A program made the position numbers and the translations under genes. The notes under the pieces are model-generated. The model worked only from the letters and a program-made list of their open reading frames with translations, was not told the origin of the DNA and made no database searches. From a phage: DNA of 64,000 bases. Below, in pieces: positions 33,388 through 54,848 of this stretch (positions are counted from its first letter, which is position 1; every line of letters begins with the position of its first letter). The stretch lies in assembly GCA_011911785.1 (NCBI GenBank), contig GCA_011911785.1_4084.1; one strand, written 5' to 3'.

Positions 33388-33399
33388 TGGTGGTAAACT

Positions 33400-35775: not shown

Positions 35776-35793
35776 AAACATTGGAAAATAATC

Positions 35794-35979: not shown

Positions 35980-35982
35980 TTC

Positions 35983-36216: not shown

Positions 36217-36238
36217 AAGACGTAATGGGATATAAACT

Positions 36239-36598: not shown

Positions 36599-36608
36599 GG
36601 ATCAATCC

Positions 36609-37412: not shown

Positions 37413-37456
37413 TAGTTCAGTACTGTCCATGTGGCAGTACTTTTTATGGAGACTAT

Positions 37457-38074
37457 ATGACTACATCACAAAAGTACTGGTGGATTTTGGGACACCCTGA
37501 ATTTATCAATAAAGACTACGTTGATGCTCGCATTGATGTTGAGCCACACGATGTATGTCCTATCACCAATCGTATTGAAGATTATCCGGTACTGAATACA
37601 AAAACACAGTACTGGATCGAAATGCTAACTCCGTTTTTCGATGAAGACGAAGGGAAGTTCGTTCGTGGACATGAGTACGAGTTGGATTGTGGTGGTGATA
37701 CATATGAAGAAGCAATTGATAATTTATACACCAAGATCCTAGAAAAGTACGGTGATTACACACAAGAAGAAGCGGAAGCTAAGTATGATGCTGTACATCA
37801 GCGTGTAGTGACGAAAAGTGCTTTTCCTTCATCAATGTTCCAACCAGAAGAACTTCGTAACACATGGGAGAACTCAAAATTATCTGAAATTGAACTTGAT
37901 TATATTCCAGGTGATATTGAAAACATTAAAGGTACAATAAAAGCCTTGAAAGAATTCCTCAAAACTTGTACAATAGAAGAACAAGAAGAGGCAAACAAAC
38001 ATTTACAATCCGAGGAATGTAAACTATGGGTGCTTGAGGAATCACTTAGAAAAGGCATAGACTACAACATATGA
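37457..38074 (+). CDS. hypothetical acidic protein
   Basis: 205-aa ORF. Confidence 0.4.
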   Translation: MTTSQKYWWILGHPEFINKDYVDARIDVEPHDVCPITNRIEDYPVLNTKTQYWIEMLTPFFDEDEGKFVRGHEYELDCGGDTYEEAIDNLYTKILEKYGDYTQEEAEAKYDAVHQRVVTKSAFPSSMFQPEELRNTWENSKLSEIELDYIPGDIENIKGTIKALKEFLKTCTIEEQEEANKHLQSEECKLWVLEESLRKGIDYNI

Positions 38075-38439
38075 ACCCGAAATTGCTTAAACTGGTAGAA
38101 GAACTCCGTGAGATGCCGCCGATTGAACAAGTTGGCAATTACAAACGGTATAGAGTAATTGCTCGTGCACTGGATAAGAAAGGTCGAGTACTGGCTACTC
38201 GTACCAACTCTTACACACAGACTCACCCTAAGCAGAAAGGCTTTGCAATTCGTGCGGGTCGCCCTCAAGGGGAATTTTTACACGCTGAAATTTCGTGTCT
38301 TCTTGCTGCTCGTGCTGAAGTACATACTCTTCTTATCGCTCGTGTAAGTAAAGATGGAATTCCAGTTCCAGCAAAACCTTGTGAGATTTGTACATTAGCA
38401 ATTCAGGAGTACGGGGTAAAAGAGATTATCCATACATGA
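38071..38439 (+). CDS. CDA-fold zinc-dependent deaminase (TadA / cytidine deaminase-like)
   Basis: HAEISCLLAA and PCEICTL, the H[AC]E ... PCxxC deaminase signature, in a 122-aa protein. Confidence 0.55.
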   Translation: MNPKLLKLVEELREMPPIEQVGNYKRYRVIARALDKKGRVLATRTNSYTQTHPKQKGFAIRAGRPQGEFLHAEISCLLAARAEVHTLLIARVSKDGIPVPAKPCEICTLAIQEYGVKEIIHT

Positions 38440-38657
38440 AAATTGAACGATATCAGCACCATACTGTACTGTTTGGTGAATCAATAATGTACTATTATAT
38501 TTTTGAGCCAAAACATTCGTTACAAATAACTATATACGAAAATGGTAAATTTAAAGATACCAATTTCCCATTACATGAATTGGCATTATATTCCAGTACT
38601 GATCACTTTAAGCATTTAGTATTTGTATATTGTATTCCAAATGAAAACGAGGAATAA
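38436..38657 (+). CDS. hypothetical protein
   Basis: ATGA overlap with upstream stop. Confidence 0.35.
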   Translation: MKIERYQHHTVLFGESIMYYYIFEPKHSLQITIYENGKFKDTNFPLHELALYSSTDHFKHLVFVYCIPNENEE

Positions 38658-38659
38658 CT

Positions 38660-39070
38660 ATGTTAGAAGATGAGTTTCTAAAATTAAGTAGAAAGATATT
38701 TGATATACTAGGTGATGAAACAGATTTCAATCTAAGCGATAAAGATATCCCATTGGAAGATGGTGGTTTCTTTTTCGCATTTGGATCTACGTATAATCTG
38801 GATATTTCAAAGCCTATCAGTGATGATAGTGATTATACTGCAACAACATATTTTGATTTCCAGCTTAATGGACACAAAGAGCGTTTACTAACGTACAGAC
38901 GTAAAGGTAGTTTCAATAGAACCGAGATTACATTAATGGATTTTGAGAAACGCATCGAACTCGCGAAGAAACATCCATTCATCAGTACTCATGCGTTTAA
39001 TAGGCTAATCGATCTATTAGACAGTTATCCAGAGACAATACGAGGGTCATTACGTTTAAATGCAGATTGA
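38660..39070 (+). CDS. hypothetical protein
   Basis: 136-aa ORF. Confidence 0.4.
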   Translation: MLEDEFLKLSRKIFDILGDETDFNLSDKDIPLEDGGFFFAFGSTYNLDISKPISDDSDYTATTYFDFQLNGHKERLLTYRRKGSFNRTEITLMDFEKRIELAKKHPFISTHAFNRLIDLLDSYPETIRGSLRLNAD

Positions 39071-39245
39071 AATTTTAAAAAAAGAATATGATGGTGAAAG
39101 TCTATATGATATCCAAAGAGATGTGCATGAAGCTTTTGATTCAAGATTTAACCCATTAGCTGAACAAATCCCACAAGATGAATATGGCTTCCAACAAGGT
39201 ACATTTACTGTAACTATTACATGGAGTCCAGATAAGACTAATTAA
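39060..39245 (+). CDS. hypothetical small protein
   Basis: 61-aa ORF. Confidence 0.3.
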   Translation: MQIEILKKEYDGESLYDIQRDVHEAFDSRFNPLAEQIPQDEYGFQQGTFTVTITWSPDKTN

Positions 39246-39346
39246 ACTATTCATTGGTTGCAGTGCAATTGCAATTTATATGTTATGCCCAGCACCAATT
39301 AACACTGTTATGCTAATATGGTCAGTTGTTATTTTGTCTATTCTAT

Positions 39347-39372
39347 AAAGCACCCAAGTGGTGCTTTTTGTG
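39347..39372 (+). terminator. rho-independent terminator
   Basis: Hairpin aaagcacc-caagt-ggtgcttt followed by a T-tract. Confidence 0.6.
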
Positions 39373-39503
39373 TTTGTACAGTACTTAATCAATTGCACTT
39401 TTCCTTGATTTAGGTCAAGAGAAAAAGGCCAATATGAGGCTATAATGCTCTTTGTTGAAGTTAAATAAATTCACCCAAACGAATAACATACAAGGAATGT
39501 GAA

Positions 39504-41309
39504 ATGCAAATAGATAAATTATATACGGACGTAACTAACTTCCTCAACCAGAGTAACGCTGATTTAACAAACGAAAATGCAAATAAAGACGCTAAATGTG
39601 TTAATACACATCGTGATTTATTGGCAGGTATTCTTTCTAAACATTATTCCCAAGATGTGATTCCTGATGAATTGATGAAGTGGCATAATGAAGGTTACGG
39701 TCATATTCATGATTTAGACTATTACATTAGCCCATTAACAAACTGTTGTTTAGTTAATTATCCTGATATGCTTGCTAATGGCTTCATGATTGGTTGTGCC
39801 AAGATTGAAGAACCAAAAAGCTTTGGGGTAGCTTGTACAGTACTAACACAGATTGTTCAGGCTGTGGCAAGTTCACAGTACGGTGGTCAGTCGTTGGCTC
39901 ACATTGACACTGGCCTTGCACCATATGTACAAAAGTCATGGGATAAACTTCTAGAAAAACAAAAGAAATACAATCTTAGTACTGAATTCATCGAAGATGA
40001 GTTGCGTAAGGAAGTTTATGACGGTTGTCAAACAATTCTATATCAAACAAACTCAATGATCAGTACTAATGGTCAGGCTGCGTTCATTTCTTTGAGTTTA
40101 GGATTAGGTACATCTAAATTTGAAAAACTAATCACTGAACAATATTTGAAAGTACATGAAAATGGACTAGGTAAAGATAAGATTACTCCAGTATTTCCTA
40201 AAGTAATATTCTTTCTTCAGGATGGAATTAATATGAACAGTACTGATTGTAATTATGACTTAAAACAATTAGCTATGCGTTGTGCAGCTAAACGCATCTA
40301 TCCTGATTTTGTATCAGTACCTTTGAATCAAAAAGTTACTGGAAGCACAACTATTCCTGTTACTCCTATGGGATGCAGAAGTTTCTTAGGGAAATGGGAA
40401 AATACACAAGGAGAAGAAAAATACAATGGTAGATTCAACCTTGGCGTTGTGTCTATCAACTTACCACTAATTGCTCTTGAGAGTGAGTCTGATGGTGATT
40501 TCTTTGATAAGATTGACGAGCACATGAATATTGCTTACAGAGCACAGATGAACCGTGTAGAACGTTTAAAAGGTACAAAGGCAAAACAAAACCCTATACT
40601 TTTCGCTGAAGGTGCGATTGCACGTCTTGATCCTGAAGACACTATTGACCATTTATTTTATAATGGTTATGCTAGTATCAGTATTGGTTATGTTGGGTTA
40701 TCTGAGTGTTCAGAGATCCTCACTGGTTCAATTAGTAAAGAGTTCTGTATGAGTATTTTGAACTACATGAAAGCAAAATGTGATGAATTCAAAAAAGAGA
40801 GTAACATTGCATTTAGTCTTTACGGTACACCAGCAGAATCACTATGTTATAAATTTGCACGTTGTATTGAGGCAAAACATCCTTCAGTACTGAAACGTGA
40901 CTTTATCACTAACTCATTCCATCAACCAGTATGGGTTGAAAGTACACCTTTTGCTAAATGGGATTATGAGGAAAACTTTGCTTATCTAAGCAATGGTGGT
41001 AATATTAGCTATGTCGAAACACCAAATCTAGCTAATAATATACAAGCACTTGAAACATTAATAAATTTTGCTTATACTAAAATTCCATATTTTGGTATTA
41101 ATCAGAAGGTCGATAAGTGTTTTGAATGTGATTTTGAGGGTGAATTTAGTGTAGATAAAAATGGTTTCCATTGTCCGGTATGTGACAACCGCAATGAACG
41201 CACAATGTCGGTTATTCGCAGAGTATCAGGATATCTTAGTGCACCAAATAGTCGCCCGTTCAATAAAGGTAAACAAGCTGAAGTTATTCAACGTATACAA
41301 CACATGTAA
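39504..41309 (+). CDS. nrdD: anaerobic ribonucleoside-triphosphate reductase
   Basis: 601 aa; C-terminal zinc ribbon (CFECDF ... CPVCDN) followed by glycyl-radical motif RRVSGYL; adjacent nrdG. Confidence 0.9.
   Translation: MQIDKLYTDVTNFLNQSNADLTNENANKDAKCVNTHRDLLAGILSKHYSQDVIPDELMKWHNEGYGHIHDLDYYISPLTNCCLVNYPDMLANGFMIGCAKIEEPKSFGVACTVLTQIVQAVASSQYGGQSLAHIDTGLAPYVQKSWDKLLEKQKKYNLSTEFIEDELRKEVYDGCQTILYQTNSMISTNGQAAFISLSLGLGTSKFEKLITEQYLKVHENGLGKDKITPVFPKVIFFLQDGINMNSTDCNYDLKQLAMRCAAKRIYPDFVSVPLNQKVTGSTTIPVTPMGCRSFLGKWENTQGEEKYNGRFNLGVVSINLPLIALESESDGDFFDKIDEHMNIAYRAQMNRVERLKGTKAKQNPILFAEGAIARLDPEDTIDHLFYNGYASISIGYVGLSECSEILTGSISKEFCMSILNYMKAKCDEFKKESNIAFSLYGTPAESLCYKFARCIEAKHPSVLKRDFITNSFHQPVWVESTPFAKWDYEENFAYLSNGGNISYVETPNLANNIQALETLINFAYTKIPYFGINQKVDKCFECDFEGEFSVDKNGFHCPVCDNRNERTMSVIRRVSGYLSAPNSRPFNKGKQAEVIQRIQHM
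40883..40894. repeat. 12-bp palindrome TTCAGTACTGAA
   Basis: Exact 12-mer inside nrdD. Confidence 0.6.
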
Positions 41310-41318
41310 GGAGATATT

Positions 41319-41681
41319 ATGTCAATTCAAGGTAAACAAGTCATGTCTGGTGAGCACCGTGGAACTATCATGCTAATAGAAAATGATATTGCACGTATTA
41401 TTGTATCAAAGACCTTTTCCGAAGATGATGAAGTACTTTTGAGTACTTTTGATGGTGAGGTACTGCGTGATGTGGAAATTCAACACGCACCGAATATTGA
41501 AGGTGGTCAGCACTTGAATGTAAATGTTCTATCTAAAGAACAACTAATTGATGCACAAAATAATCCAGAAAAGTATCCGCAACTTACAATTCGTGTTAGT
41601 GGTTATGCAGTTCGTTTCAATTCACTAACAAAAGAACAACAAGATGATGTAATCAATCGTACTTTTACTAAAGGTCTATGA
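41319..41681 (+). CDS. grcA: autonomous glycyl-radical cofactor (GrcA/YfiD-like)
   Basis: C-terminus [42 protein letters not shown] closely matches my recollection of E. coli GrcA. Confidence 0.85.
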
Positions 41682-42013
41682 TGGACTTAAAACCAATTGT
41701 AGTTAACAAATATAAAGAACCATATGATGTGTATATAGGTCGTGGGTCCAAATGGGGAAATCCATTTACCCACATTAATGACAAACAAACAAAGGCAGAG
41801 TTTATAGTTCCGACACGAGAAGAGTCGATTGAGAAGTTCAGAGAGTATCTTATCCAAAGAATTGAAAATGGTGAGGTTACTATCGAAGAACTACTTGAAT
41901 TGGCTGGGAAGCGTCTTGGGTGCTTTTGTAAGCCAAAATCATGTCATGGTGATGTTCTTGTAGAAATAGTGAGTGCAATATTAGATGAATTACCAGACGA
42001 TAATCAAGGATGA
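41678..42013 (+). CDS. conserved hypothetical protein (DUF4326-like)
   Basis: Motif [10 protein letters not shown] plus C-terminal [11 protein letters not shown]; family assignment is from memory and uncertain. Confidence 0.4.
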
Positions 42014-42464
42014 TTTAGTTAATGGGGAGGGAGTTAGATGCTCCCTTTTTGTTTCAGGGTGTAGCCACGGATGTGAAGAATGCTTCAACGAAAAAGCATG
42101 GGATTATCGCAGTGGTTCAGAATTCAGTACTGAAACAGTTGAAATCATCCTGAATGAACTTAACAAGCCATATGTACAAGGATTATCCCTTTTAGGTGGT
42201 GATCCATTGATGCCAAAGAATATCAGTACTGTTATTGAGTTATGTAAAGTAGTAAAAGAAAAATATCCAAATAAAGATATTTGGTGCTGGAGTGGTTATA
42301 CTTTAGAGGAAATAATAAATAATCATGCCTCCGTAATACTAGAGTACATTGATGTATTAGTTGATGGTAAATTTATTCTTGAAGAAAAGAATTTAGAATT
42401 ACCATTTAGAGGCTCTAATAATCAACGTATTCTTCGTAAAGGAGTAGATTATGCGTTATCTTGA
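41985..42464 (+). CDS. nrdG: anaerobic ribonucleotide reductase activating protein (radical SAM)
   Basis: N-terminus [35 protein letters not shown] matches the NrdG signature. Confidence 0.9.
   Translation: MNYQTIIKDDLVNGEGVRCSLFVSGCSHGCEECFNEKAWDYRSGSEFSTETVEIILNELNKPYVQGLSLLGGDPLMPKNISTVIELCKVVKEKYPNKDIWCWSGYTLEEIINNHASVILEYIDVLVDGKFILEEKNLELPFRGSNNQRILRKGVDYALS
42123..42134. repeat. 12-bp palindrome TTCAGTACTGAA
   Basis: Exact 12-mer inside nrdG, preceded by AA (aattcagtactgaa). Confidence 0.6.
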
Positions 42465-42609
42465 TATTATTTCGGAAAAGATACAGAAACGTGGAAATGA
42501 GTGGGTTGTTACTGACCACACAGGGAAGAAAGTTCTCGGTCGTCACCCAACAAGAAAAGAAGCACTTAAACAATTAAGAGCAGTTGAATTTTCTAAACAC
42601 GGCGGTTAA
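42451..42609 (+). CDS. small hypothetical protein (52 aa)
   Basis: ORF below the track threshold; ATG 42451 overlaps the nrdG 3' end; followed directly by a terminator. Confidence 0.35.
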   Translation: MRYLDIISEKIQKRGNEWVVTDHTGKKVLGRHPTRKEALKQLRAVEFSKHGG

Positions 42610-42616
42610 TATGAAG

Positions 42617-42641
42617 AAGCACCCTTTGGGTGCTTTTTTTA
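42617..42641 (+). terminator. rho-independent terminator
   Basis: Hairpin aagcaccc-ttt-gggtgctt followed by ttttt. Confidence 0.65.
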
Positions 42642-42647
42642 TACTAT

Positions 42648-42655
42648 TATAAATA
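42648..42655 (+). promoter_or_regulatory. T4-type late promoter element TATAAATA
   Basis: Exact tataaata 32 nt upstream of the ATG of the tail-fibre-like gene at 42687. Confidence 0.4.
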
Positions 42656-42686
42656 CACTATGGATATCTAGATAAAAGGGATATAT

Positions 42687-45386
42687 ATGGCAAAGAAAAT
42701 ATATGGTGGCATTGATGTTACACATAATGTAACAGTCAAAGGTAAGAGAAGTGTTCAGAGCATCAATGATAACGTATTTGATGAAAATGGCAATCTCACA
42801 ATAGATGCATATACACAAGATGATATGCTGGAAATGGTTGGTATGTTACCCATTTCTCGTTATGGTACACAAAACTATCTACCTGCTGGTGTCAATGGTA
42901 CAACAGTTGGTTCTTCAGAAAATGCTAGTTCCAGAAATACAAAATTATTTTTGGAAGATGATAACACTTTAGTAATGTTACGTCCGGGTACTAATGGAAG
43001 TTCACAGGGGATTTATTATAGTTATATGACCCAGGCGGTTGGTACAACAAATACAAGTCGTATGGTTAATACTACTCGTGCATATAAACCAAATTATTTT
43101 GGTGCTGGGTATGCAGTTTATTTGTATCCAAGCAGTGATGATATTACTTGTGGTTTGGTGAGAACTGAAAATTCTGATGGTACATATATTGATAGAGTTT
43201 TTGTTTCAGTCAATAATGGTACTATGAATGATACAATGCACACTGGTATTATTCTATCAGACCATACAGCCGTACAACCTTTTGGTGCAATACAATTTGT
43301 TATTCGTGCTGAAGATGGTTCATTATACTTTTTCAGTTTAGATACACCAAGCAATACTCTTAAAATATCCGTTACTAAAGTTACTTTTAGTCCAAGTAAT
43401 AACCCAGGTGGTGGTACTTATAGTACTACTAGAATTACTGGTTGGGCCACAAGAACTTTTTATAATGCAATGGTATATGATGACAATATTGTTCCAACTA
43501 TGAAAATAAATTCAACAAATACCAATGATAATCCATACGTTTTAATTCCAAGTGGTATTATTGGGTTTGGTGTTTATATGACAGATCCAGATTTATATGT
43601 TGCACAGAAATCTGGTACATCCGAATTCAGATTTAGATTATGTGGTGATATGTGGATGACAAATGGACGATATGACACACGCCCACAACACAGTTTTAGT
43701 ATGACTTTTGATGTTGTGACAAAACAATGTAAATTGGATAATATGTTAACGACTACACCAGTTGCTGTTAATGACACGGGTTCAAGTATGAATGTAACGG
43801 GTCAATGCATAACAAAAGATCCATTTTATCTTCACGCGGGTGGTCGTAATATTTTTAGTAATTATTGCTATGTACCATCAACTGGTGATGCATTTTGTTC
43901 ATTCTCACCAAACCTCGCAGAAGCATTGAATTTATCATACGCGAAATATCCACCACAGTCATTGTTTAATTTAATGAATGTTAGAAGTGTATCAGCAACT
44001 AATTTTATTAATGGTGTAGTATCACCAAGATTTGGTTCAGCAGTTGGATCATACCAAGTAGGCGTAGAGTTATTACCAAATAACAGTACTAAACAATATT
44101 CAAGACGTTCTGGTGATGGTCGTTTTTATCCATCCTATGCTGTACATAAAGCTACACCGAACTTCACATTTAAGTCTCTAGACTATGGTACTGTTCCTGG
44201 TTATGAACCAACACCAGACCGAGCGTTTATAACTACACCAGAATCTAGAATTTTTATAAGTTCAATTTCTGGATCAACGGTAACGACTAATGGTGGTGTT
44301 TTGGTGGCTGATAATAGAACATCAACTCCTATTAGTTTTGATTATAAAGGTAATGTACTGAATAATGGTACAATCAGTATGTCTCAAGATATAATGAATG
44401 CTATTCGAAATTCCGAATTTGCTAAAGTTGCTAGTTCATGGAATATATCACCAGAATCAATAAAAACATTATCTGTATTTGTTCCACAACAAACTGATAT
44501 TCCTGTTTTTGGTGTTCTTGCAGCATCTACTACAGCCCGTGGTTTATATGTACGAGTTGTTGAATTGAATGTCAATACAAGAACTGGTGATATTACAACA
44601 TGGTCGTTCAAACGTTTAGTACATGAAAGTGTTCAAGCTGGGGATTACAAAACAGATACCGCATATCATCTTGATAGTGGAAGTATTGGTATTACTATAT
44701 ATGATGCTGGTTCTTTCTACTTCATCGGTGGTGGTATTCCTGGGTTCTTTAATACTGTTGGTAATACAGCTTCACCATTTTTCCGTGCTACAGTAGATAA
44801 AGCAACTGCCCAATTTAATAATTTCCATATAGCGGGTCAGCGTCCGATCTATGCATTAGATGGTCAACCATTCGCTTTACCTAATATTGGGTTTGGTATT
44901 CTTCAAAGTATAGATAATACAAACAAAACAATTTTTAGAACATATGGTACTACATTAGCGGATTATAATGCATGGACTGATAAAGGAAATCCATTTATAT
45001 GTCTTGTTTCCCAAGATGTTGCTCAAGGTTTTATTATATACTTCACCGAAGAGACACCAGTACTGATATCCGGTAAACACTATACATTACCAATATCAAA
45101 TATAGATTTAACAACTGTGAAAGCAAATCCTGCCAATACTACATTTTATGTGTATATTAAATTAGTACAGGGTATTGCAAACTATCATATATCAACAACT
45201 GAATTAGCTGAAACTCATTCAATATTCTGGATTGGTACAGTGAAAACTGATAATTTACAAATAACCGAAATTAATATAGAAAAACGTTCTCGTTTAGACC
45301 TGTTTGGTTCATCATTCAACGCTGCCGGAAGTTCCTTCCCAGTAAGTTCTGGGTTCCCTTCAAGTTCTGGTAATGTGAATTGGTAA
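42687..45386 (+). CDS. putative tail fibre / receptor-binding protein (paralog A)
   Basis: 899 aa, Gly/Ser/Thr/Asn-rich; N-terminal (MLPISRYGTQNYLP) and C-terminal (SSGFPSSSGNVNW) modules shared with 45998..48739. Confidence 0.45.
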   Translation: MAKKIYGGIDVTHNVTVKGKRSVQSINDNVFDENGNLTIDAYTQDDMLEMVGMLPISRYGTQNYLPAGVNGTTVGSSENASSRNTKLFLEDDNTLVMLRPGTNGSSQGIYYSYMTQAVGTTNTSRMVNTTRAYKPNYFGAGYAVYLYPSSDDITCGLVRTENSDGTYIDRVFVSVNNGTMNDTMHTGIILSDHTAVQPFGAIQFVIRAEDGSLYFFSLDTPSNTLKISVTKVTFSPSNNPGGGTYSTTRITGWATRTFYNAMVYDDNIVPTMKINSTNTNDNPYVLIPSGIIGFGVYMTDPDLYVAQKSGTSEFRFRLCGDMWMTNGRYDTRPQHSFSMTFDVVTKQCKLDNMLTTTPVAVNDTGSSMNVTGQCITKDPFYLHAGGRNIFSNYCYVPSTGDAFCSFSPNLAEALNLSYAKYPPQSLFNLMNVRSVSATNFINGVVSPRFGSAVGSYQVGVELLPNNSTKQYSRRSGDGRFYPSYAVHKATPNFTFKSLDYGTVPGYEPTPDRAFITTPESRIFISSISGSTVTTNGGVLVADNRTSTPISFDYKGNVLNNGTISMSQDIMNAIRNSEFAKVASSWNISPESIKTLSVFVPQQTDIPVFGVLAASTTARGLYVRVVELNVNTRTGDITTWSFKRLVHESVQAGDYKTDTAYHLDSGSIGITIYDAGSFYFIGGGIPGFFNTVGNTASPFFRATVDKATAQFNNFHIAGQRPIYALDGQPFALPNIGFGILQSIDNTNKTIFRTYGTTLADYNAWTDKGNPFICLVSQDVAQGFIIYFTEETPVLISGKHYTLPISNIDLTTVKANPANTTFYVYIKLVQGIANYHISTTELAETHSIFWIGTVKTDNLQITEINIEKRSRLDLFGSSFNAAGSSFPVSSGFPSSSGNVNW

Positions 45387-48808: not shown

Positions 48809-49369
48809 ATGGTACAATCACGTTTTAGACCACCGCTGTCACCAGCACAGTTACAACGTTTAAAAGAAAAAGAGCAGCACTTTCAGAATACCCTAGTAGT
48901 TCGTTTGCTATGCAAAAGTGTAACTCTTAAAGATTTTGTGAAAACCGATAATGAACGTAAATCACTTATCGAACTTAAGTACAAGTTAAGTAAGCATAAA
49001 CTATATGGATTACTAGCAGAATACACCCAAAATCCATTCAGTGATCGTTGGTCTATGGTTCAAAAAAAACTGTGGGGTGGTGATGAAGAATTCACACTAC
49101 GTGATTTAAAAAATGCAATCATGTTTAAGGTCGATTATACACCAGCAGGGATTGAACACAGAACCGAAGAAACTATCATTCAATCAAGAGATTTATCATG
49201 TGTTGTTTCTTCAAACTTCGGTGTTCATTATGATATGCTTGATGACGATGAGTTAATGATCCTGTTCCATGTGATTATTGGTGCTGAAGATATTAAAGAA
49301 AAGTTATCACAAATTGAAGAAGAACAGCGTAAATTCAAAATCCAAAAGAGAATAACTGATTTATATTAA
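48809..49369 (+). CDS. hypothetical protein, tandem paralog family member 1
   Basis: Shares DNERKSLIELKYKLSKHKL and LFHVIIGAEDIKEKLSQIEEEQRKFK with the next two ORFs. Confidence 0.45.
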   Translation: MVQSRFRPPLSPAQLQRLKEKEQHFQNTLVVRLLCKSVTLKDFVKTDNERKSLIELKYKLSKHKLYGLLAEYTQNPFSDRWSMVQKKLWGGDEEFTLRDLKNAIMFKVDYTPAGIEHRTEETIIQSRDLSCVVSSNFGVHYDMLDDDELMILFHVIIGAEDIKEKLSQIEEEQRKFKIQKRITDLY

Positions 49370-49378
49370 GAGGTTACT

Positions 49379-49879
49379 ATGTTTTTCAAAAAGAAAAATA
49401 ATGATCACAAAAGAGAAAATGTAGAGTGGTGTACATTAATTCTTCCAGTACTGATGAAAAGCTATTCTTTAAAAGAAATTATCCGTACTGATGAAGATCG
49501 TAGAACTATACTTAAAATTAAAGAAATGTTAAGTTCTCATTCTCTAATGAAACTAATCACAGACCTAGTTAAAGAACCATACGGTGAACGTTGGTTATAT
49601 GAACCAGTATTCATATATGGTAATCATATCAACCGTGTAAAATTGTTTGATACCGAAACTAAGGTTGATTTTAATGCAGTAACATATTCATCTAAAGATT
49701 ATGATGAAAAACATACATTTGTTTATATTAACGGAGATGCGAATATTCTACCTAAACATGAACAAATGTTTTTGTTTCATTTACTCGTTGCACTTCGTGA
49801 GCTTGAAACAAAGTACAAGAAGTTAGAATACGAGCAGCATAAACTTAATGAATTTAATAAATTAAAAGGATTATACTAA
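49379..49879 (+). CDS. hypothetical protein, tandem paralog family member 2
   Basis: DEDRRTILKIKEMLSSHSL and LFHLLVALRELETKYKKLEYEQHKL. Confidence 0.45.
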   Translation: MFFKKKNNDHKRENVEWCTLILPVLMKSYSLKEIIRTDEDRRTILKIKEMLSSHSLMKLITDLVKEPYGERWLYEPVFIYGNHINRVKLFDTETKVDFNAVTYSSKDYDEKHTFVYINGDANILPKHEQMFLFHLLVALRELETKYKKLEYEQHKLNEFNKLKGLY

Positions 49880-50385
49880 TGTTCTTCGGTAAACATAAAG
49901 TAAAAGATGATGGTATTCTTCAGTACTTAGTTGCGTTGATTTTAAACAAAAGTACTTTATTAGTACCTAATATTAAATCAGACAAAGATCGCAGAGAAAT
50001 TATTCAAAACAAATATCTTCTTTCAAAATGTGATCCTGTTATCTATGCATTTTGTAAGTACTGTTCAAAAAACTTGTTCAGTATTCATGTAGATTTTGAA
50101 AGACAAGAAAGCAGCACACGAAATTCTTGTTTTAAAGTGTATATGATTAATGATTTAAATCGTGGGAATCGAGGGTTCATGTTCTGGATGGACGGACGTG
50201 ATATACGTGTGCGTATTAAAATGTCAGTTGGGTGGAAGGATTTTTCAACTTCTGTATCTGATTTTCTTGTACTTCACGCACTATATAACAGTATTACTAA
50301 CGTGAAAGATATCGACAAGAAAATTCAGGAACAAAAAGAATTGGATGATGCAAAGAACGAATACTTACAACATTACAGGAGTTAA
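49879..50385 (+). CDS. hypothetical protein, tandem paralog family member 3
   Basis: DKDRREIIQNKYLLSKCD and LVLHALYNSITNVKDIDKKIQEQKEL. Confidence 0.45.
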   Translation: MFFGKHKVKDDGILQYLVALILNKSTLLVPNIKSDKDRREIIQNKYLLSKCDPVIYAFCKYCSKNLFSIHVDFERQESSTRNSCFKVYMINDLNRGNRGFMFWMDGRDIRVRIKMSVGWKDFSTSVSDFLVLHALYNSITNVKDIDKKIQEQKELDDAKNEYLQHYRS

Positions 50386-50388: not shown

Positions 50389-50790
50389 ATGGATCTTGAT
50401 GATGTGTATAGCACCATAAGACAGATGGATTCGTATAAAAAAGTATATAGTGGTTACAAGAGTGATAAACAATTTTATGGAATCGGGGAGTATGATGTAA
50501 TATCATTCGAATACGATGATACTGGTGAAAGTTCCATTAATATTGTTTGTCCTCGTGACCGTGAAAATAACTTCATGTACGTTGAAATCAATAATGATGG
50601 TTTACACTTTACTAAAATATTAAATGGTGGCAAACAATCTATTTCTCTGGATTTATCCGAAGAAGAAAAGTTCTTTCAAGAAGATACTATAATCAATCTA
50701 GGTTTTAGTTTATCAGAATACAAAGTTCTTCATAAAGATTTCATGAAGTACTATAATGGGTTTCTTAAGGAGCTAACATTACATCTATGA
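50389..50790 (+). CDS. hypothetical protein
   Basis: 133-aa ORF. Confidence 0.4.
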   Translation: MDLDDVYSTIRQMDSYKKVYSGYKSDKQFYGIGEYDVISFEYDDTGESSINIVCPRDRENNFMYVEINNDGLHFTKILNGGKQSISLDLSEEEKFFQEDTIINLGFSLSEYKVLHKDFMKYYNGFLKELTLHL

Positions 50791-53066
50791 ATAATAACAA
50801 ATTTCTTGAACAAACAATTGTGAAGCACTTAGCAGGTTCACAAGCGTATGGAACCAGTACACCTGAAAGTGATACGGATTATCGTGGTATTTTTCTTGCT
50901 AACAAAGAATTTATCCTTACACCTTTTTATAATGTCAAGGAAGTTTCTGATAAAAAAGAAGAAGATACTAAATTCTATGAACTAAATCAGTACTTAAGAC
51001 TATACACAGAGGCTAACCCAAATATCCTTGAATCACTATGGGTTGATCCTGAACACATCGTAGAAAGTACTGAAATCTATGATTATCTACGTACATTCAA
51101 TCAACAATTACTTAGTTCTAAGATTGCATTCTCTTATACCGGTTATGCATATAATCAGGTTAAACGTATGTCCAATCACCACGGGTGGATGGATAAAGAG
51201 CGTATTGCTGAAAAACGTCTAAATGAAATCTTAGAAGATTTTCCAGTAGATGAAACTTTAGCATGGATGTATGAAAACTTCCCACACTATTTGGTAGAAC
51301 GTTTAGATACTTCTAAACTACATCCATTTAATGCTAAGAAAATAGATTTTGAAAAATACATGCGTGATACTTCATTGCAGTTAGTTTCGACTCATCCGTT
51401 GAAACAGTATCATTTTGTACGTTTAGTACATAATTACAGTACTGATAAAGTACTAGACCGTGATTTCAACTTATTGGATTATAACAATGGGTACGAATTA
51501 ATTCATTACGGTGAAAATATCTTTGGTGTTATTATCAATCCTAATGAAAGTACAATTAACGCTGATGGTTCTTTACGTTATTTCAACAAAGAACGCAGTA
51601 CTGAAGAATTGAAAGTACGACCTGAACTCATTGTCAAATTCAATGAAAAAGAATACAGTGAGAACAGTGAGAACCGTAAAAGTTATCACAAATGGAAAGA
51701 GAATCGTAATGCTAAACGTGCAATTCTTGAATCCAAACACGGCTATGACTGTTATAGTTTTGATACTGAATTCTTAACTAAAGATGGTTGGAAATTGTTT
51801 GATGATATCACTGAAAATGATCTATTAGCAACATTTGATAAAAATCACAAAATAGAATATCAGAAATATACTGAACGTTTTGATAATTTATATAATGGCA
51901 ACCTATATCACTTCACTGGTTATCACCAAGATACTTTAGTGACTGCTAACCATCGAATGTATGTTAAGGATTATGCACGTAATCAGAAAAAAGATATGTC
52001 TGATTGGAAATTTGTGGAAGCTGCACAATTAAAAGAAACATATAAAATTTTGAATACATTATCCCCAATAACAAACGAATACCAAGATAAAAAAAGTCCA
52101 TTTGACTACATGGATATCAAAGTTTATCTTCAACTTATGGGATGGTTTATTTCAGATGGTAGTATAAGTTTCAGAGATGGTAAAGTAAAATCATTATATA
52201 TTTCCCAATCAAAAGCAAGTCCAGGTATGCGTTGTGCTTTAACAAAATACAAACAATCTGGTCAATTGGTTTTCCATGAATACATTGTAGAAAAGAAAGA
52301 TTATCAAGCGAATGATGAATCAAGATTTACATTCCCACGTGAAGTGGCTGAAGCATTATATAATGATTGTGGACATGGTTCATATAATAAACGAATTCCA
52401 AATTGGGTATTTGATTTAACAAAACGCAAAATGGATTTTCTACTGAAAGGTTTGTTACAAGGTGATGGTACAAAACGCAATTTAGTTAATGATAATGATA
52501 CATATGTATATTATACTGCGAATTCATTATTAGCAGATGATGTTCAAAAACTAGCATTACTGTGCGGGTATGAAACATCAAAATGGGGGCCGTACACAAA
52601 CGAGACTAATTTTGGACGTGTTGATATGTATCAAATTCATATCAACATGAAACCGAAATCCGAAAAAATGAACATGAAACAAAATCTTGAAAAAATTCCA
52701 GTTACTAATTACAGAACTGTTTGTTTTTCTGTTCCCAACGGCACACTCGTTACTCGTAGAAATGGTAAAATAGCATTACATGGAAACTGCAAACATGCTA
52801 TGCATACGATCAGACTTTTGAATACAGCCGAAGAAGCATTACAAAGCGGTATTATCCTCGTGAAACGTCCTGATGCTGATATGCTAATGGATATTCGCAA
52901 CGGTAAATGGAAATATGAAGAAGTCATGGATTATTTCAATGAAAAGGTTGACTATATTCGTAATGTAGTGTATCCTAAGTCAGTACTACCAAAGAAACCA
53001 GATATTGCATTAGCAGCGAAAGTACTTTTAGATATTCGTGAAATGCAATGGTATAGTTCAAAATAA
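50787..53066 (+). CDS. Pol-beta-superfamily nucleotidyltransferase-domain protein interrupted by a putative intein
   Basis: N-terminal NTase signature GS-x10-DTD (HLAGSQAYGTSTPESDTDYRG); central ~346-aa insertion with intein-like blocks. Confidence 0.55.
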   Translation: MNNNKFLEQTIVKHLAGSQAYGTSTPESDTDYRGIFLANKEFILTPFYNVKEVSDKKEEDTKFYELNQYLRLYTEANPNILESLWVDPEHIVESTEIYDYLRTFNQQLLSSKIAFSYTGYAYNQVKRMSNHHGWMDKERIAEKRLNEILEDFPVDETLAWMYENFPHYLVERLDTSKLHPFNAKKIDFEKYMRDTSLQLVSTHPLKQYHFVRLVHNYSTDKVLDRDFNLLDYNNGYELIHYGENIFGVIINPNESTINADGSLRYFNKERSTEELKVRPELIVKFNEKEYSENSENRKSYHKWKENRNAKRAILESKHGYDCYSFDTEFLTKDGWKLFDDITENDLLATFDKNHKIEYQKYTERFDNLYNGNLYHFTGYHQDTLVTANHRMYVKDYARNQKKDMSDWKFVEAAQLKETYKILNTLSPITNEYQDKKSPFDYMDIKVYLQLMGWFISDGSISFRDGKVKSLYISQSKASPGMRCALTKYKQSGQLVFHEYIVEKKDYQANDESRFTFPREVAEALYNDCGHGSYNKRIPNWVFDLTKRKMDFLLKGLLQGDGTKRNLVNDNDTYVYYTANSLLADDVQKLALLCGYETSKWGPYTNETNFGRVDMYQIHINMKPKSEKMNMKQNLEKIPVTNYRTVCFSVPNGTLVTRRNGKIALHGNCKHAMHTIRLLNTAEEALQSGIILVKRPDADMLMDIRNGKWKYEEVMDYFNEKVDYIRNVVYPKSVLPKKPDIALAAKVLLDIREMQWYSSK
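51750..52787 (+). mobile_element. putative intein with LAGLIDADG-type homing endonuclease domain
   Basis: Block A CYSFDTEFLT, block B TANH, two LAGLIDADG-like motifs (LMGWFISDGSIS, LLKGLLQGDGTK), C-terminal NGKIALHGN followed by Cys; in frame with the host ORF. Confidence 0.5.
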
Positions 53067-53078
53067 GAGGATATTGAT

Positions 53079-53549: not shown

Positions 53550-53924
53550 ATGAGTGTACTAGATATTATTGTTTCAAAAGTACTGATACCGTTCTGGAAA
53601 CCAATTGCGTTTGTTCTCCTGATGGCATCATGTACTTTTGGAGGCTGGAAGGCTAATACTTTTTATACTGGGTATAAAGAAAGTATTGAATTAAAAATAG
53701 AGAAGAAAGTAGATGCGGCTTTAAGTAAAATTGAAAGCCAAAATACTAAAAACTATGTAGAAACTAAACAGATAATGCAAAATAATGCAAAGGTAATAGA
53801 AACTAAAGTACCAGTTATTATTGAGCGTGAAGTGTATAGAAATGTATGTTTAGATGAAGAAGGGGTAAAACTTTTGAATGATCTAAAACAAAATTCACTT
53901 GCAGCTAGAGAGAAATTTAAATGA
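53550..53924 (+). CDS. putative i-spanin (Rz-like)
   Basis: Single N-terminal TM helix then charged periplasmic region; overlaps the downstream lipoprotein gene. Confidence 0.45.
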   Translation: MSVLDIIVSKVLIPFWKPIAFVLLMASCTFGGWKANTFYTGYKESIELKIEKKVDAALSKIESQNTKNYVETKQIMQNNAKVIETKVPVIIEREVYRNVCLDEEGVKLLNDLKQNSLAAREKFK

Positions 53925-54235
53925 AATACATATTAACATTCTTGATTACTTTTATGCTTATCACTGGGTGTTCTAATAAGGTTCCAGTTCAAGCGTCACC
54001 AATAATCACCCAGGAAATATTATTAGAACGATGCGAAGAAGATACACCAATTCCTAAAAAAATTGTTGTTGACTCACATGGTAATAGAGGATATGCTGGT
54101 GATGAAATTCTTAACGTTCTGACGCGTTGGGATTCCATGTACAATGAATGTGCACTGAGATATGATGCACTAATTGATACAATTCGCAAACTCCAAGACC
54201 AAAATATTCGTGTTAACATAAAAGTTAAGGAATAG
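53921..54235 (+). CDS. putative o-spanin (Rz1-like lipoprotein)
   Basis: Signal peptide with lipobox LITGC; ATGA overlap with the upstream TM protein gene. Confidence 0.5.
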   Translation: MKYILTFLITFMLITGCSNKVPVQASPIITQEILLERCEEDTPIPKKIVVDSHGNRGYAGDEILNVLTRWDSMYNECALRYDALIDTIRKLQDQNIRVNIKVKE

Positions 54236-54236: not shown

Positions 54237-54848
54237 ATGTCTAAATATCATGTTTATTATGTAACCAAATTGAGTTTACTAGATGAACTCAATCATACTA
54301 GTACCAAAATGAAACGTTATACTTATAATGGTATTACTTTCAGATACTTTCCACAAAAAGTACTAACATTCGTTAAGAATTGTAAGTGCGTTGCTTGTGG
54401 CATCGAGGCTACAGAAGTTCGAATCGAACGTTCCAACTGTAGTGATCCGGTATATGGTAAACCGCATTTAAATGTGTATGCAGTATGTGGTCTTTATGAA
54501 GTTATGATGACTGTAGATCATAATCATCTTGCATCTAAAGGTGGTGCTGATTTGGAGTCAAACTTTAATACAATGTGTGCGAGATGTAATCAGTTGCGTT
54601 CAAATAAAACTGAAACGGTTGATGAATTCCTTGAGAAAGTCAAAAACCGAAATCTACTTGAAGAACATATGAATCGTTATTTCAATAAGATTGAGAAGGA
54701 AAGTAAACGTCCTACACCAGAAATGCTCGAAGAACGTAGATTGCGTCAAGAGCTATGGGATAACGATCATCTGTGGCATGTTCGTGAGTACGGGCGACAC
54801 ATGAAAGCATTAAAAAAGGCACAAAAGCTGTTGGATAAACATGAGTAA
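54237..54848 (+). CDS. HNH homing endonuclease
   Basis: HNH core VDHNHLASKGGADLESNFNTMCARCNQLRSN with upstream Cys pairs. Confidence 0.7.
   Translation: MSKYHVYYVTKLSLLDELNHTSTKMKRYTYNGITFRYFPQKVLTFVKNCKCVACGIEATEVRIERSNCSDPVYGKPHLNVYAVCGLYEVMMTVDHNHLASKGGADLESNFNTMCARCNQLRSNKTETVDEFLEKVKNRNLLEEHMNRYFNKIEKESKRPTPEMLEERRLRQELWDNDHLWHVREYGRHMKALKKAQKLLDKHE

What the first reader, a model, noticed from the sequence alone, without database searches (positions are those of the whole stretch)
50787..53066. Putative intein with LAGLIDADG endonuclease domain inside a nucleotidyltransferase gene
The 759-aa ORF begins with a Pol-beta-type NTase signature (GS-x10-DTD) and carries a central ~346-aa insertion (51750..52787) showing intein-like blocks: N-terminal Cys (CYSFDTEFLT), TxxH (TANH), two LAGLIDADG-like motifs and a C-terminal ...HGN followed by Cys. 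Phage inteins are usually described in replication, RNR or terminase genes; one in an NTase of unknown function would be unusual and marks that gene as functionally important. The NTase itself could belong to a nucleotide-signalling or nucleic-acid-repair family.
Basis: partly seen in the sequence, partly recalled or inferred. Interest (0 to 1): 0.7.

Follow-up and report, generated by a model that had tools for sequence, protein, structure and literature searches.

The report
Mobile intein in phage RNA-repair nucleotidyltransferase
The 759-aa gene of this E. coli jumbo phage is an RlaP-type RNA-repair nucleotidyltransferase interrupted by a real, apparently still mobile, self-splicing intein with a LAGLIDADG homing endonuclease. 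The same kind of intein at the same site is already known from mycobacteriophages, so it is a new host record and not a new kind of element.

Summary
ORF 50787..53066 (+) encodes a PF10127/RlaP nucleotidyltransferase carrying a 346-aa insertion at 51750..52787. The nearest intein-free alleles (phage A4, 97% identical N-extein; 121Q) lack exactly these residues: HGYD|C...HGN|CKHAMH.

The insert is predicted with high confidence (pLDDT 94.3) to adopt a HINT plus LAGLIDADG fold. Its best structural matches are the TliVMA intein, PI-SceI and PI-PfuI.

It is an allele of a known intein. Homologues sit at the same RlaP site in Bixzunavirus mycobacteriophages (the 'NT' intein of Kelley et al. 2016), Lak megaphages and many metagenomic phage contigs.

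Among 34 Asteriusvirus records only TH47 also has it. Synonymous divergence between the two inteins (0.33) is 3-5 times lower than in their exteins (0.99 and 1.87). dN/dS is about 0.1, including the endonuclease domain. These figures suggest recent homing and retained function.

Clade peculiarities are a penultimate Gly, Cys at block F:4 and Met at B:12.

The claim that an intein in an NTase is unusual is not. Verdict: new member of a known kind, modest interest.

The parts
50787..53066 (+). Precursor ORF, 759 aa plus stop, calculated 89.6 kDa: RlaP nucleotidyltransferase interrupted by an intein
   Evidence: ORF list; Pfam RlaP 58 bits against a cut-off of 23, plus LAGLIDADG_3; phrog_388 nucleotidyltransferase E = 2e-77 in two stretches; masses
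50787..51749 (+). N-extein, aa 1-321: Pol-beta NTase domain plus a lineage-specific middle region, ending in the conserved W-K-x-N-R-N-x-x-R-x-x-L-E-x-x-x-G-Y-D motif
   Evidence: 97.2% nt identity to the intein-free A4 gp502; invariant columns W303, R307, N308, R311, E315 and near-invariant G319, D321 in 42 homologues
50835..50879 (+). NTase active-site signature G17-S18-x10-D29-x-D31
   Evidence: Sequence; G17, S18, D29, D31 invariant in 42 homologues; lies within the PF10127 match, aa 15-132
51750..52787 (+). Intein, 346 aa, calculated 40.5 kDa (aa 322-667): Cys1 ... Asn346
   Evidence: Exactly the block absent from the A4 and 121Q orthologues; AF2 pLDDT 94.3; Foldseek top hits are endonuclease-containing inteins
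51750..51791 (+). Splicing block A (CYSFDTEFLTKDGW). Cys1 is the presumed first nucleophile
   Evidence: C1, T6, T10, G13 invariant in 38 clade members
51933..51965 (+). Splicing block B (TLVTANHRMYV): T65 (B:7), H68 (B:10), M70 (B:12)
   Evidence: H68 in 38/38, T65 in 33/38, M70 in 32/38; this lobe aligns with the AceL NrdHF intein 6zgq
52110..52649 (+). LAGLIDADG homing-endonuclease domain (about intein 121-300; limits approximate, taken from the model's secondary structure)
   Evidence: PF14528 26.4 bits against a cut-off of 22.5; alpha-beta-beta-alpha-beta-beta-alpha pattern repeated twice in the model; Foldseek hits to I-DmoI and I-SceI for this part; dN/dS 0.106 against TH47
52125..52163 (+). 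LAGLIDADG motif 1 (YLQLMGWFISDGS) with acidic Asp136
   Evidence: G131 near-invariant and G137 invariant; Asp or Glu at this position in the relatives shown
52437..52472 (+). LAGLIDADG motif 2 (FLLKGLLQGDGT) with acidic Asp239
   Evidence: D239 in 37/38, G240 in 38/38
52713..52787 (+). Splicing blocks F and G (RTVCFSVPNGTLVTRRNGKIALHGN): Cys325 at F:4, Gly331 at F:13, invariant Arg336, His344 (G:5), Gly345 (penultimate, G:6), Asn346 (terminal)
   Evidence: Column counts: C325 34/38 (Asp in 2), R336 38/38, G345 37/38, N346 38/38. The F:4 register comes from weak alignments to PI-PkoII (YDL) and the KlbA intein (IYDLTV)
52788..53066 (+). C-extein (aa 668-759 plus stop). It starts with the +1 nucleophile Cys668, followed by the invariant K-H-A-x-H-x-x-R helix of RlaP
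   Evidence: Alignment to intein-free alleles. K323, A325, H327, R330 (numbering of the intein-free protein) are invariant in 42 homologues. The model places the site in the loop before helix 322-341

Best explanation
The gene encodes an RlaP-family, RNA 3'-end-extending nucleotidyltransferase of an Asteriusvirus-type E. coli jumbo phage. It has been invaded by a full-size intein made of a HINT splicing domain and a nested LAGLIDADG homing endonuclease.

Shown here:
- The 1,038-bp element is in frame and is absent from near-identical alleles.
- It has the intein fold.
- It sits in the most conserved motif of the enzyme's C-terminal helical domain.
- It belongs to an intein lineage that occupies this same RlaP site in very different large phages.

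Inferred:
- The 89.6-kDa precursor splices by the class-1 route. Cys322 makes the N-S acyl shift. Cys668 (+1) attacks the thioester. Asn667 cyclises, helped by something other than the usual penultimate His, which is Gly here as in the whole clade. An S-N shift then joins Asp321 to Cys668.
- The products are a 413-aa, 49.1-kDa active NTase, the same length as A4 gp502, and a free 40.5-kDa endonuclease.
- In mixed infections the endonuclease cuts intein-free alleles at the ...CACGGnTAyGAy|TGyAAACATGCTATGCAT junction. Repair from the intein-bearing copy spreads the element (homing) with very short co-conversion tracts.
For: Precise insertion: HGYD|[346 aa]|CKHAMH against A4 and 121Q.

Fold: AF2 mean pLDDT 94.3, pTM 0.92. 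Foldseek against the PDB gives TliVMA intein 2.3e-15, PI-SceI 2.4e-11, PI-PfuI 3e-11, plus I-DmoI and hedgehog/mini-intein partial hits.

Sequence: the family profile hits PI-PkoII 6e-22, TliVMA 1.3e-12 and AceL NrdHF 1.4e-10. PF14528 scores above its cut-off.

Catalytic set conserved in 38 relatives: C1 38/38, H68 38/38, N346 38/38, D239 37/38, and +1 always C, S or T.

Same site in other phages: Cali gp3, Lak-B6 and P0002-P0020.

Mobility:
- Only 1 of 34 Asteriusvirus records (TH47) has the intein.
- The top 120 of 646 extein homologues are about 410 aa, apart from one of 686 aa with an intein at the same site and a few truncated or slightly longer entries.
- Intein dS between window and TH47 is 0.33, against 0.99 and 1.87 for the flanking exteins. 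dN/dS is 0.097 overall and 0.106 in the endonuclease domain.
- The two codons 5' of the junction read TAT GAC in the window, the state of the TH47/vB_Ec-M-J lineage. Its closest background, A4, reads TAC GAT.

Splicing competence with a penultimate Gly has been shown experimentally for a more distant relative, the Bethlehem gp51 intein. Its extein class (phosphoesterase/RDF) appears among my tblastn hits at about 22% identity (PMC5050341).

Extein function: PF10127 and RlaP biochemistry (PMC12776372).
Against: - No splicing or cleavage assay exists for this intein or, to my knowledge, for any RlaP intein.
- No Pfam or NCBIfam HINT model matches the splicing lobes.
- Three canonical class-1 catalytic helpers are missing: the penultimate His (Gly345), the block F:4 Asp (Cys325) and the F:13 His (Gly331).
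- The dS contrast rests on one pair of sequences. A local recombination mosaic in the 3' part of the gene complicates a simple donor-recipient story.
- No RNA ligase partner was found among the window ORFs I scanned. The RNA-repair role of this particular RlaP is therefore by family membership only.
Confidence: 0.9

Rival explanations
1. The intein splices by a class-3-like or hybrid route. The conserved block-F Cys325 (F:4), and not Cys1 (or in addition to it), would form the first branched thioester, as in the AceL NrdHF 'MCT' intein.
For: The clade signature is Met at B:12 (32/38), Cys at F:4 (34/38), no penultimate His (Gly 37/38) and often no F:13 His. The experimentally proven class-3 AceL NrdHF intein has Met70, Cys124 (F:4) and lacks both His residues (PMC7891396). 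Its N-lobe is the closest solved sequence relative of the N-terminal splicing lobe of this intein (E = 0.0045 single sequence, 1.4e-10 profile).
Against: Cys1 is invariant in 38/38 clade members, whereas AceL NrdHF has Ala1 (PMC7891396). G:5 is variable (His, Cys, Gln, Ser) and not the class-3 Thr. Two members have the class-1 Asp at F:4. My reading of two published surveys is that they place nucleotidyltransferase inteins in class 1: Kelley 2016 names class-3 groups only in RecB and TerL1-d, and Gosselin 2025 finds class 3 in only 4 exteins, of which the passages I read name TerL, Cas4, DNA helicase and minor capsid. The F:4 register rests on non-significant alignments.
Confidence: 0.1
2. The element is a decaying or splicing-dead intein, so the NTase of this phage is effectively a pseudogene. 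Alternatively the endonuclease is already inactive and the intein persists only by vertical descent.
For: Non-canonical residues at G:6, F:4 and F:13. The intein is rare among close relatives. Nothing has been tested experimentally.
Against: The ORF is intact. All invariant clade residues are present, including both LAGLIDADG acidic residues. dN/dS is 0.08-0.11 in every sub-domain against TH47. The exteins remain under purifying selection (dN/dS 0.06-0.08). A penultimate-Gly relative splices efficiently (PMC5050341).
Confidence: 0.07
3. The 346 residues are a native accessory domain of this NTase subfamily, or a group I intron or free-standing homing-endonuclease gene mis-read as coding sequence, and not an intein.
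For: None beyond the absence of a Pfam HINT hit.
Against: About 90 extein homologues at 47% identity or more lack it, including alleles 97% identical in the N-extein. There is one continuous reading frame with no internal stops. No Rfam intron family was found in the window. The HINT lobes flank the endonuclease in the model.
Confidence: 0.01

Closest known systems
Mycobacteriophage cluster C1 (Bixzunavirus) 'NT' intein, e.g. Cali gp3 and Alice NT (Kelley et al. 2016, PMC5050341; Gosselin et al. 2025 preprint)
   Same: Same extein family: Cali gp3 matches PF10127 at 5.5e-49. Same insertion point...G[YW]D|C ... HGN|[CT]K..H..R. Same architecture, HINT plus LAGLIDADG, about 335-346 aa. Homologous over 100% of the intein (34.6% identity, E = 5e-49). 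Same CY.DDTEFLT..GW start and VCF.VPN.TL.TRRNGK.A.HGN end.
   Different: Only about 35% identical. The host phage is a Gram-negative (E. coli) jumbo myovirus. The extein carries a roughly 170-aa middle region absent from Cali gp3. The +1 residue is Cys here and Thr in Cali.
Mycobacteriophage Bethlehem gp51 (RDF/metallophosphoesterase) intein
   Same: Same broad intein clade: phosphoesterase inteins are tblastn hits at about 22% identity over 100% of the query. It has a penultimate Gly in place of His. It splices efficiently, and the G-to-H mutant splices more slowly (PMC5050341).
   Different: Different extein and insertion site, and much lower identity.
AceL NrdHF class-3 split intein (PDB 6zgq; PMC7891396)
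   Same: Closest solved sequence relative of the N-terminal splicing lobe. Shares Met at B:12, Cys at F:4 and the absence of both the F:13 and penultimate His.
   Different: It is split and has a free-standing GIY-YIG gene, not a nested LAGLIDADG domain. It has Ala1 (no N-terminal nucleophile) and Thr at G:5. Its extein is RNR NrdF. Its mechanism is proven class 3, whereas Cys1 is invariant here.
PI-SceI, PI-PfuI, PI-PkoII and the TliVMA intein (archetypal LAGLIDADG-containing inteins with solved structures)
   Same: Overall two-domain fold (Foldseek E = 2e-15 to 9e-11, TM about 0.6). The endonuclease domain aligns by sequence profile (PI-PkoII 6e-22).
   Different: 10-12% sequence identity. 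No extra DNA-recognition region of the PI-SceI type is evident (346 aa against 454). The canonical Asp F:4 and penultimate His of those inteins are replaced here.
TerL inteins of Rak2 and K64-1, other inteins reported in Rak2-like jumbo phages (PMC5259590)
   Same: Same wider phage group, and a HINT plus LAGLIDADG (pfam14528) architecture.
   Different: Different extein (large terminase). No NTase intein is mentioned for this phage group in the papers I could search.

Membership tests
Intein (HINT self-splicing element) | In-frame insertion with precise boundaries, absent from orthologous alleles | tested here: met
   Residues 322-667 are a single gap-free block against A4 gp502 and 121Q gp506.
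Intein (HINT self-splicing element) | Cys/Ser/Thr at intein position 1, block B T-x-x-H, C-terminal Asn, Cys/Ser/Thr at +1 | tested here: met
   C1, T65-x-x-H68, N346 and C+1 are present. In the clade: C1 38/38, H68 38/38, N346 38/38, +1 always C, S or T.
Intein (HINT self-splicing element) | Canonical class-1 helpers: penultimate His (G:6), Asp at F:4, His at F:13 | tested here: not met
   Gly345, Cys325 and Gly331 respectively. Gly at G:6 in 37/38 and Cys at F:4 in 34/38 of the clade. This variation is known in phage inteins (PMC5050341).
Intein (HINT self-splicing element) | HINT fold | tested here: met
   AF2 pLDDT 94.3. Foldseek matches full inteins and, for the splicing lobes, hedgehog 1at0, BIL and mini-inteins.
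Intein (HINT self-splicing element) | Match to curated intein/HINT sequence profiles | tested here: not met
   No Pfam HINT or intein-splicing model and no NCBIfam intein N- or C-terminal model hit. Only LAGLIDADG_3 and whole-protein models that contain inteins hit. A profile built here does hit solved inteins.
Intein (HINT self-splicing element) | Protein splicing demonstrated | not testable with these tools
   Needs expression and SDS-PAGE or mass spectrometry.
LAGLIDADG homing endonuclease (nested in the intein) | Two LAGLIDADG helices, each ending in an acidic residue, in a pseudo-dimeric alpha-beta-beta-alpha-beta-beta-alpha fold | tested here: met
   Motifs at intein 126-138 (Asp136) and 230-241 (Asp239). 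PF14528 scores above its cut-off. Secondary-structure pattern. I-DmoI and I-SceI Foldseek hits.
LAGLIDADG homing endonuclease (nested in the intein) | Site-specific cleavage of the empty allele and homing | not testable with these tools
   Indirect support only: sporadic distribution, intein dS 0.33 against extein dS 0.99 and 1.87, dN/dS 0.106 in the endonuclease domain, and two donor-type synonymous sites next to the junction.
RlaP-site intein allele (the mycobacteriophage 'NT' intein lineage) | Same extein family, same insertion point, homologous intein sequence | tested here: met
   Cali gp3 matches PF10127 at 5.5e-49. The junctions align in the same columns. 34.6% identity over 100% of the intein. 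Also Lak-B6 and P0002-P0020.
RlaP nucleotidyltransferase (PF10127) | Profile match above the curated threshold, with the Pol-beta hG[GS]-x9-13-D-x-[DE] motif | tested here: met
   58 bits against a cut-off of 23, aa 15-132. G17, S18, D29, D31 invariant.
RlaP nucleotidyltransferase (PF10127) | C-terminal helical domain forming the substrate cleft | tested here: inconclusive
   The Pfam match covers only profile positions 25-144 of 249. The AF2 model of the intein-free protein (pLDDT 92.6) has a helical C-terminal half. No solved RlaP was available in the PDB copy; the best Foldseek hits were KNTase and HalB at E of about 0.03-0.05.
RlaP nucleotidyltransferase (PF10127) | Genomic association with an RNA ligase or RNA-repair genes | tested here: inconclusive
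   None among the 19 window ORFs scanned. An ATP-dependent DNA-ligase-type protein lies at 5879..7297, and no tRNA genes are in the window. The rest of the roughly 350-kb genome was not available.
RlaP nucleotidyltransferase (PF10127) | Addition of 1-2 NMP to RNA 3'-OH | not testable with these tools
   Shown for the Pseudomonas RlaP enzymes only (PMC12776372).
Class 3 inteins | WCT triplet (Trp B:12, Cys F:4, Thr G:5), usually with no nucleophile at position 1 | tested here: not met
   Met70, Cys325, His344, and Cys1 invariant. Only the F:4 Cys is shared. The atypical 'MCT' class-3 intein AceL NrdHF shares Met and Cys (PMC7891396).

The most novel reading that the evidence does not exclude
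The whole clade to which this intein belongs has invariant Cys1, Met at B:12, conserved Cys at F:4, invariant Arg336 in a TRRNGK motif, and Gly in place of the penultimate His. It occurs in RlaP, ThyX, DNA methylase and phosphoesterase exteins. It could be a mechanistic intermediate between class 1 and the AceL-NrdHF-type class 3 inteins. It might use the F:4 cysteine as a second or alternative thioester branch point, or as a redox partner of Cys1. That would make splicing, and hence activation of the phage's RNA-repair NTase, conditional. Separately, the co-existence among roughly 98%-identical phages of an intein-bearing allele, an empty cleavable-looking allele and an empty allele with Leu at +1 could be a live snapshot of the homing cycle in a culturable E. 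coli phage.
Probability: 0.12. Interest if true: 0.55.

Novelty: new member of a known kind. Interest (0 to 1): 0.3.

Why it matters
- It corrects annotation. The only public relative with the insert, TH47, is an unannotated, 'UNVERIFIED' record, and the exact window protein is not on record in the large gene-position collection I queried. Pipelines would therefore call a 759-aa 'nucleotidyltransferase/LAGLIDADG' fusion.
- It extends a single intein allele (the RlaP site) from actinophages to Enterobacteria jumbo phages, Lak megaphages and many environmental large-phage contigs. That supports the view that large phages act as a reservoir and exchange network for inteins.
- The intein marks the K-H-A-x-H-x-x-R helix as a functionally critical part of RlaP.
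- The host is E. coli, and near-isogenic intein-free alleles exist in A4 and GCA_012813795.2. The system is therefore experimentally convenient for measuring homing, co-conversion and resistance, and for testing what replaces the penultimate His and the F:4 Asp.
- None of this changes current concepts.

Tried and rejected
- Pfam and NCBIfam scans of the insert alone, looking for HINT or intein N/C-terminal models, found none. I relied on intein-free alleles, a home-made profile against the PDB, and fold comparison.
- phmmer of the 41-aa C-terminal splicing segment against the PDB gave nothing. A profile of that segment gave only a non-significant KlbA-intein hit (E = 0.28). It was used only to set the F:4/F:13 register.
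- I looked for a solved RlaP structure to map the insertion site, but none was in the PDB copy. Foldseek gave only weak KNTase, HalB and MNT hits. No model coordinates were available to me, so distances to the active site could not be measured.
- I looked for an RNA-ligase partner, tRNA genes or known RNA families in the window and found none.
- I considered that TH47 was the direct intein donor. This is rejected because intein dS is still 0.33.
- I considered that TAT GAC at the junction is unique to intein-bearing alleles. This is rejected: intein-free vB_Ec-M-J and CMSTMSU also have it. It is a lineage marker of the probable donor clade, not an intein-specific change.
- I considered that a TH47-like patch at aa 715-728 was a co-conversion tract. 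This is rejected because the intein-free allele P0045 shares it.
- An exact-sequence look-up of the window protein in public assemblies found it not on record.
- Literature searches for an intein in Asteriusvirus, 121Q or PBECO4 NTases found none.
Full report
**1. Observation**

The window has one uninterrupted ORF at 50787..53066 (+), 759 aa. Its N-terminus carries the Pol-beta nucleotidyltransferase signature G17-S18-x10-D29-T30-D31. It matches Pfam PF10127 (RlaP, 'RNA repair pathway DNA polymerase beta family') at 58 bits against a cut-off of 23. It also matches PHROG 388 'nucleotidyltransferase' at 2e-77 in two separated stretches. PF14528 (LAGLIDADG_3) matches residues 552-602 above its threshold. 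The only NCBIfam hits are to whole-protein models that include inteins: DnaB, PolII large subunit and GyrA_w_intein.

**2. The insertion is exact and absent from near-identical alleles**

Megablast places the gene in the Asteriusvirus group of E. coli jumbo phages (121Q, PBECO4). Of 34 matching records:
- Only the unannotated record of phage TH47 covers the whole ORF (86.9% identity).
- Phage A4 matches at 96% but lacks the middle.
- The others match only the first 42%.

Protein alignment with A4 gp502 (413 aa) and 121Q gp506 (410 aa) shows a single gap-free extra block, residues 322-667. The junctions are ...ESKHGYD|CYSFDTEF......IALHGN|CKHAMHTIRLL....

**3. It has the intein fold and intein relatives**

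With a 38-sequence alignment, AlphaFold2 models the 346 residues at mean pLDDT 94.3 and pTM 0.92. The best Foldseek matches in the PDB are endonuclease-containing inteins:
- TliVMA 2.3e-15, PI-SceI 2.4e-11, PI-PfuI 3e-11, PI-PkoII 9e-11.
- I-DmoI and I-SceI for the central domain.
- Hedgehog, BIL and mini-inteins for the splicing lobes.

A sequence profile of the family hits PI-PkoII (6e-22), the TliVMA intein (1.3e-12), the AceL NrdHF intein (1.4e-10) and the KlbA intein (6e-4). The curated Pfam and NCBIfam HINT models do not match. I record that as a failed sub-test. It shows divergence of the splicing lobes and is not evidence against an intein.

**4. It is an allele of a known intein**

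The intein alone retrieves about 18 metagenomic proteins at 34-54% identity and 100% coverage. In all of them it lies between ...G[YF][DN] and [CST]K.A.H..R, the same RlaP site.

In the annotated phage collection the next relatives after TH47 (92.5%) are:
- The nucleotidyltransferases of Bixzunavirus (cluster C1) mycobacteriophages, at 34.6% identity and E = 5e-49.
- Lak megaphages, at 29.8%.

Cali gp3 is a PF10127 protein (5.5e-49), and its intein junctions (...AYGWD|CYLDDTEFLT ... VAMHGN|TKTGYHALRL) align column for column with the window's. Lak-B6 encodes a 765-aa protein with the same arrangement.

Kelley et al. 2016 list this 'NT' intein in 23 cluster C1 phages (PMC5050341, Table 1). Gosselin et al. 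2025 list nucleotidyltransferase (IPR018775) among previously reported exteins and analyse transfer of these inteins. An intein in this NTase family is therefore documented.

What appears unreported is its presence in Asteriusvirus and Rak2-like phages. The literature I could search mentions only TerL inteins in that group. The exact window protein is not on record in the large gene-position collection I queried.

**5. Evidence of activity and mobility (indirect)**

Between the window and TH47, synonymous divergence compares as follows (Nei-Gojobori):

| Region | dS |
|---|---|
| Intein | 0.33 |
| N-extein | 0.99 |
| C-extein | 1.87 |

The window's exteins are closest to intein-free alleles: N-extein dS 0.115 against A4. 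The intein is therefore younger than the divergence of its two host genes, as expected for horizontal homing.

dN/dS is 0.097 for the intein, with 0.08, 0.106 and 0.107 for the N-lobe, endonuclease domain and C-lobe. This argues that both activities have been under purifying selection.

The two codons immediately 5' of the insertion read TAT GAC in the window. This is the state of TH47 and of the intein-free vB_Ec-M-J and CMSTMSU alleles. The window's own background (A4) reads TAC GAT, and the next informative site upstream (GGC) is A4-like. This fits a very short co-conversion tract from a donor of the TH47/vB_Ec-M-J lineage.

Among the 120 best of 646 extein homologues, nearly all are about 410 aa. 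Only P0138 (686 aa) carries a related intein at the same site.

**6. Mechanism**

Established intein chemistry and the conserved residues predict the following steps:
- N-S shift at Cys322.
- Trans-thioesterification to Cys668.
- Cyclisation of Asn667.
- S-N shift.

The products would be a 413-aa, 49.1-kDa NTase and a 40.5-kDa LAGLIDADG endonuclease (masses).

The clade departs from the textbook class-1 set in three places:
- The penultimate residue is Gly (37/38).
- Block F:4 is Cys (34/38; Asp in two members).
- B:12 is Met (32/38).

In this protein F:13 is also Gly. Kelley et al. showed that phage class-1 inteins often lack the penultimate His. They also showed that the penultimate-Gly Bethlehem gp51 intein splices efficiently, and more slowly when mutated to His. 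That intein's extein class appears among my distant hits.

The Met/Cys/no-His pattern is shared with the AceL NrdHF intein. That intein is a proven class-3 intein with Ala1, and its N-lobe is the nearest solved sequence relative of this intein's N-terminal splicing lobe. Because Cys1 is invariant here and G:5 is not Thr, I favour class 1 at about 0.8. A class-3-like or hybrid role for Cys325 remains an open minority reading.

**7. The extein and the insertion site**

RlaP enzymes add one or two NMPs to RNA 3'-OH ends and restore function to over-trimmed tRNAs. T4 NrdC.11 is a member, and jumbo phages commonly encode the family (PMC12776372, PMC7824862).

In 42 intein-free homologues the residues around the site are the densest conserved cluster of the C-terminal half:
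- Upstream: W303, R307, N308, R311, E315, G319, D321.
- The +1 residue: Thr 34, Cys 3, Leu 2, and Arg, Ala, Ser once each.
- Downstream: K323, A325, H327, R330.

The AF2 model of the intein-free protein (pLDDT 92.6) puts the junction in the loop that caps helix 322-341. By analogy with the conserved cleft described for PfRlaP, this is probably substrate- or NTP-binding. I could not measure distances, and no RlaP structure was in the PDB copy.

Neighbouring genes include anaerobic RNR and thymidine kinase (A4 annotation). I found no RNA ligase in the ORFs scanned.

**8. Population context**

The window is about 98% identical to phage A4 over 24 kb. It is also about 98% identical to a 357,761-bp contig in GCA_012813795.2, which shares its gene order downstream of the NTase. 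That contig's NTase allele (P0045) is intein-free and has Leu at +1. It has 18 nucleotide differences within -28..+39 of the junction, in an otherwise nearly identical central gene region. Such an allele could not support splicing and may not be cleavable. This is suggestive of a resistant allele, but the 3' part of the gene is mosaic in all strains, so it is not proven.

**9. Verdict**

It belongs to a known intein lineage at a known site in a now-characterised enzyme family. It is a new member of a known kind, with interest 0.3. The residual novelty lies in the clade's non-canonical catalytic residues and in the tractable E. coli phage system.

Noticed in passing
L016 4001-5242 (GCA_012813795.2 contig AATHYQ020000001.1) and L015; corresponds to window 51722..51749 plus 52788..52826: The closest intein-free allele (P0045) has Leu (TTA/CTA) in place of the +1 Cys. 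It has 18 nt differences, giving 6 aa changes, packed into -28..+39 around the homing site. The preceding ~330 nt of the gene show only one difference. It is a candidate endonuclease-resistant or uninvadable allele.
   Followed up: partly
window 53067..53078, against L014 12527-16100 (phage A4): A4 and the Logan contig L015 carry a ~3.5-kb tail-fibre module (A4_503 and A4_504) directly after the NTase gene. The window, TH47, vB_Ec-M-J and L016 go straight to the 141-aa ORF, which is annotated as acyl carrier protein in vB_Ec-M-J. This is an indel boundary next to the intein-bearing gene.
   Followed up: partly
window 52900..53066 (last ~160 nt of the NTase gene): The 3' end of the gene is a recombination mosaic: 20-25 differences per ~160 nt against both A4 and L016, compared with about 1-2% elsewhere. 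Part of it (aa 715-728) is shared with TH47 and P0045 but not with A4.
   Followed up: partly
L011 5346-7800 (JGI 3300019458 Ga0187892_10000057, 237-kb phage-like contig): The RlaP gene is fractured. A 177-aa ORF holds the NTase domain. A ~120-bp gap follows, containing a short frame with a GIY-YIG-like start (FYVYGLID...FYVGKG). A 599-aa ORF (P0004) then carries the rest plus the same-site intein. The gene appears to have been invaded twice.
   Followed up: partly
L013 5500-7632 (GCA_054390495.1, 557-kb contig labelled Promethearchaeota): P0012 is called with a late start. The NTase domain continues in frame upstream, so this is a full-length intein-bearing RlaP. The neighbours (GIY-YIG, NAPRTase, PRPP synthase, nucleoside deoxyribosyltransferase) look like a giant phage or virus and not an archaeal chromosome.
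   Followed up: partly
window 54237..54848 (+): Free-standing HNH endonuclease (PF01844, PF14279) about 1.2 kb downstream of the intein-bearing gene, also present in A4 (A4_508). It is a second selfish-endonuclease gene in the neighbourhood.
   Followed up: partly
window 53550..53924 and 53921..54235 (+): An adjacent pair resembling spanins. The 124-aa protein has an N-terminal hydrophobic segment. The 104-aa protein has a lipoprotein-like signal (…LITGC) and a weak Rz1-like LysC hit (E = 8e-4).
   Followed up: no
window 48809..50385 (+), possibly to 50790: Three tandem small ORFs (186, 166 and 168 aa) look like paralogues; they share a K-S-x-x-L-x(4-5)-[KR]-[ST]-D-x-[DE]-R-[KR] stretch. They and the following 133-aa ORF have no Pfam match. 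The last ORF overlaps the NTase start by 4 nt.
   Followed up: no
window 1..45000: Context genes found by Pfam: ATP-dependent DNA ligase (5879..7297), two metallophosphoesterases (2999..3742, 7251..8108), ClpP (8957..9652), Sir2 (29557..30309) and PIN-PhoH (31535..32998). Window 39504..41309 corresponds by position to the gene A4 annotates as anaerobic RNR (A4_490). There are no tRNA genes and no Rfam family in the whole window.
   Followed up: partly
L002 (MT446416.1 TH47) and L007 (MH494197.1 CMSTMSU): The only public phage record with this intein (TH47) is 'UNVERIFIED' and carries no annotation. In CMSTMSU the intein-free NTase gene is annotated in broken pieces. Public annotation of this locus is unreliable.
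   Followed up: no
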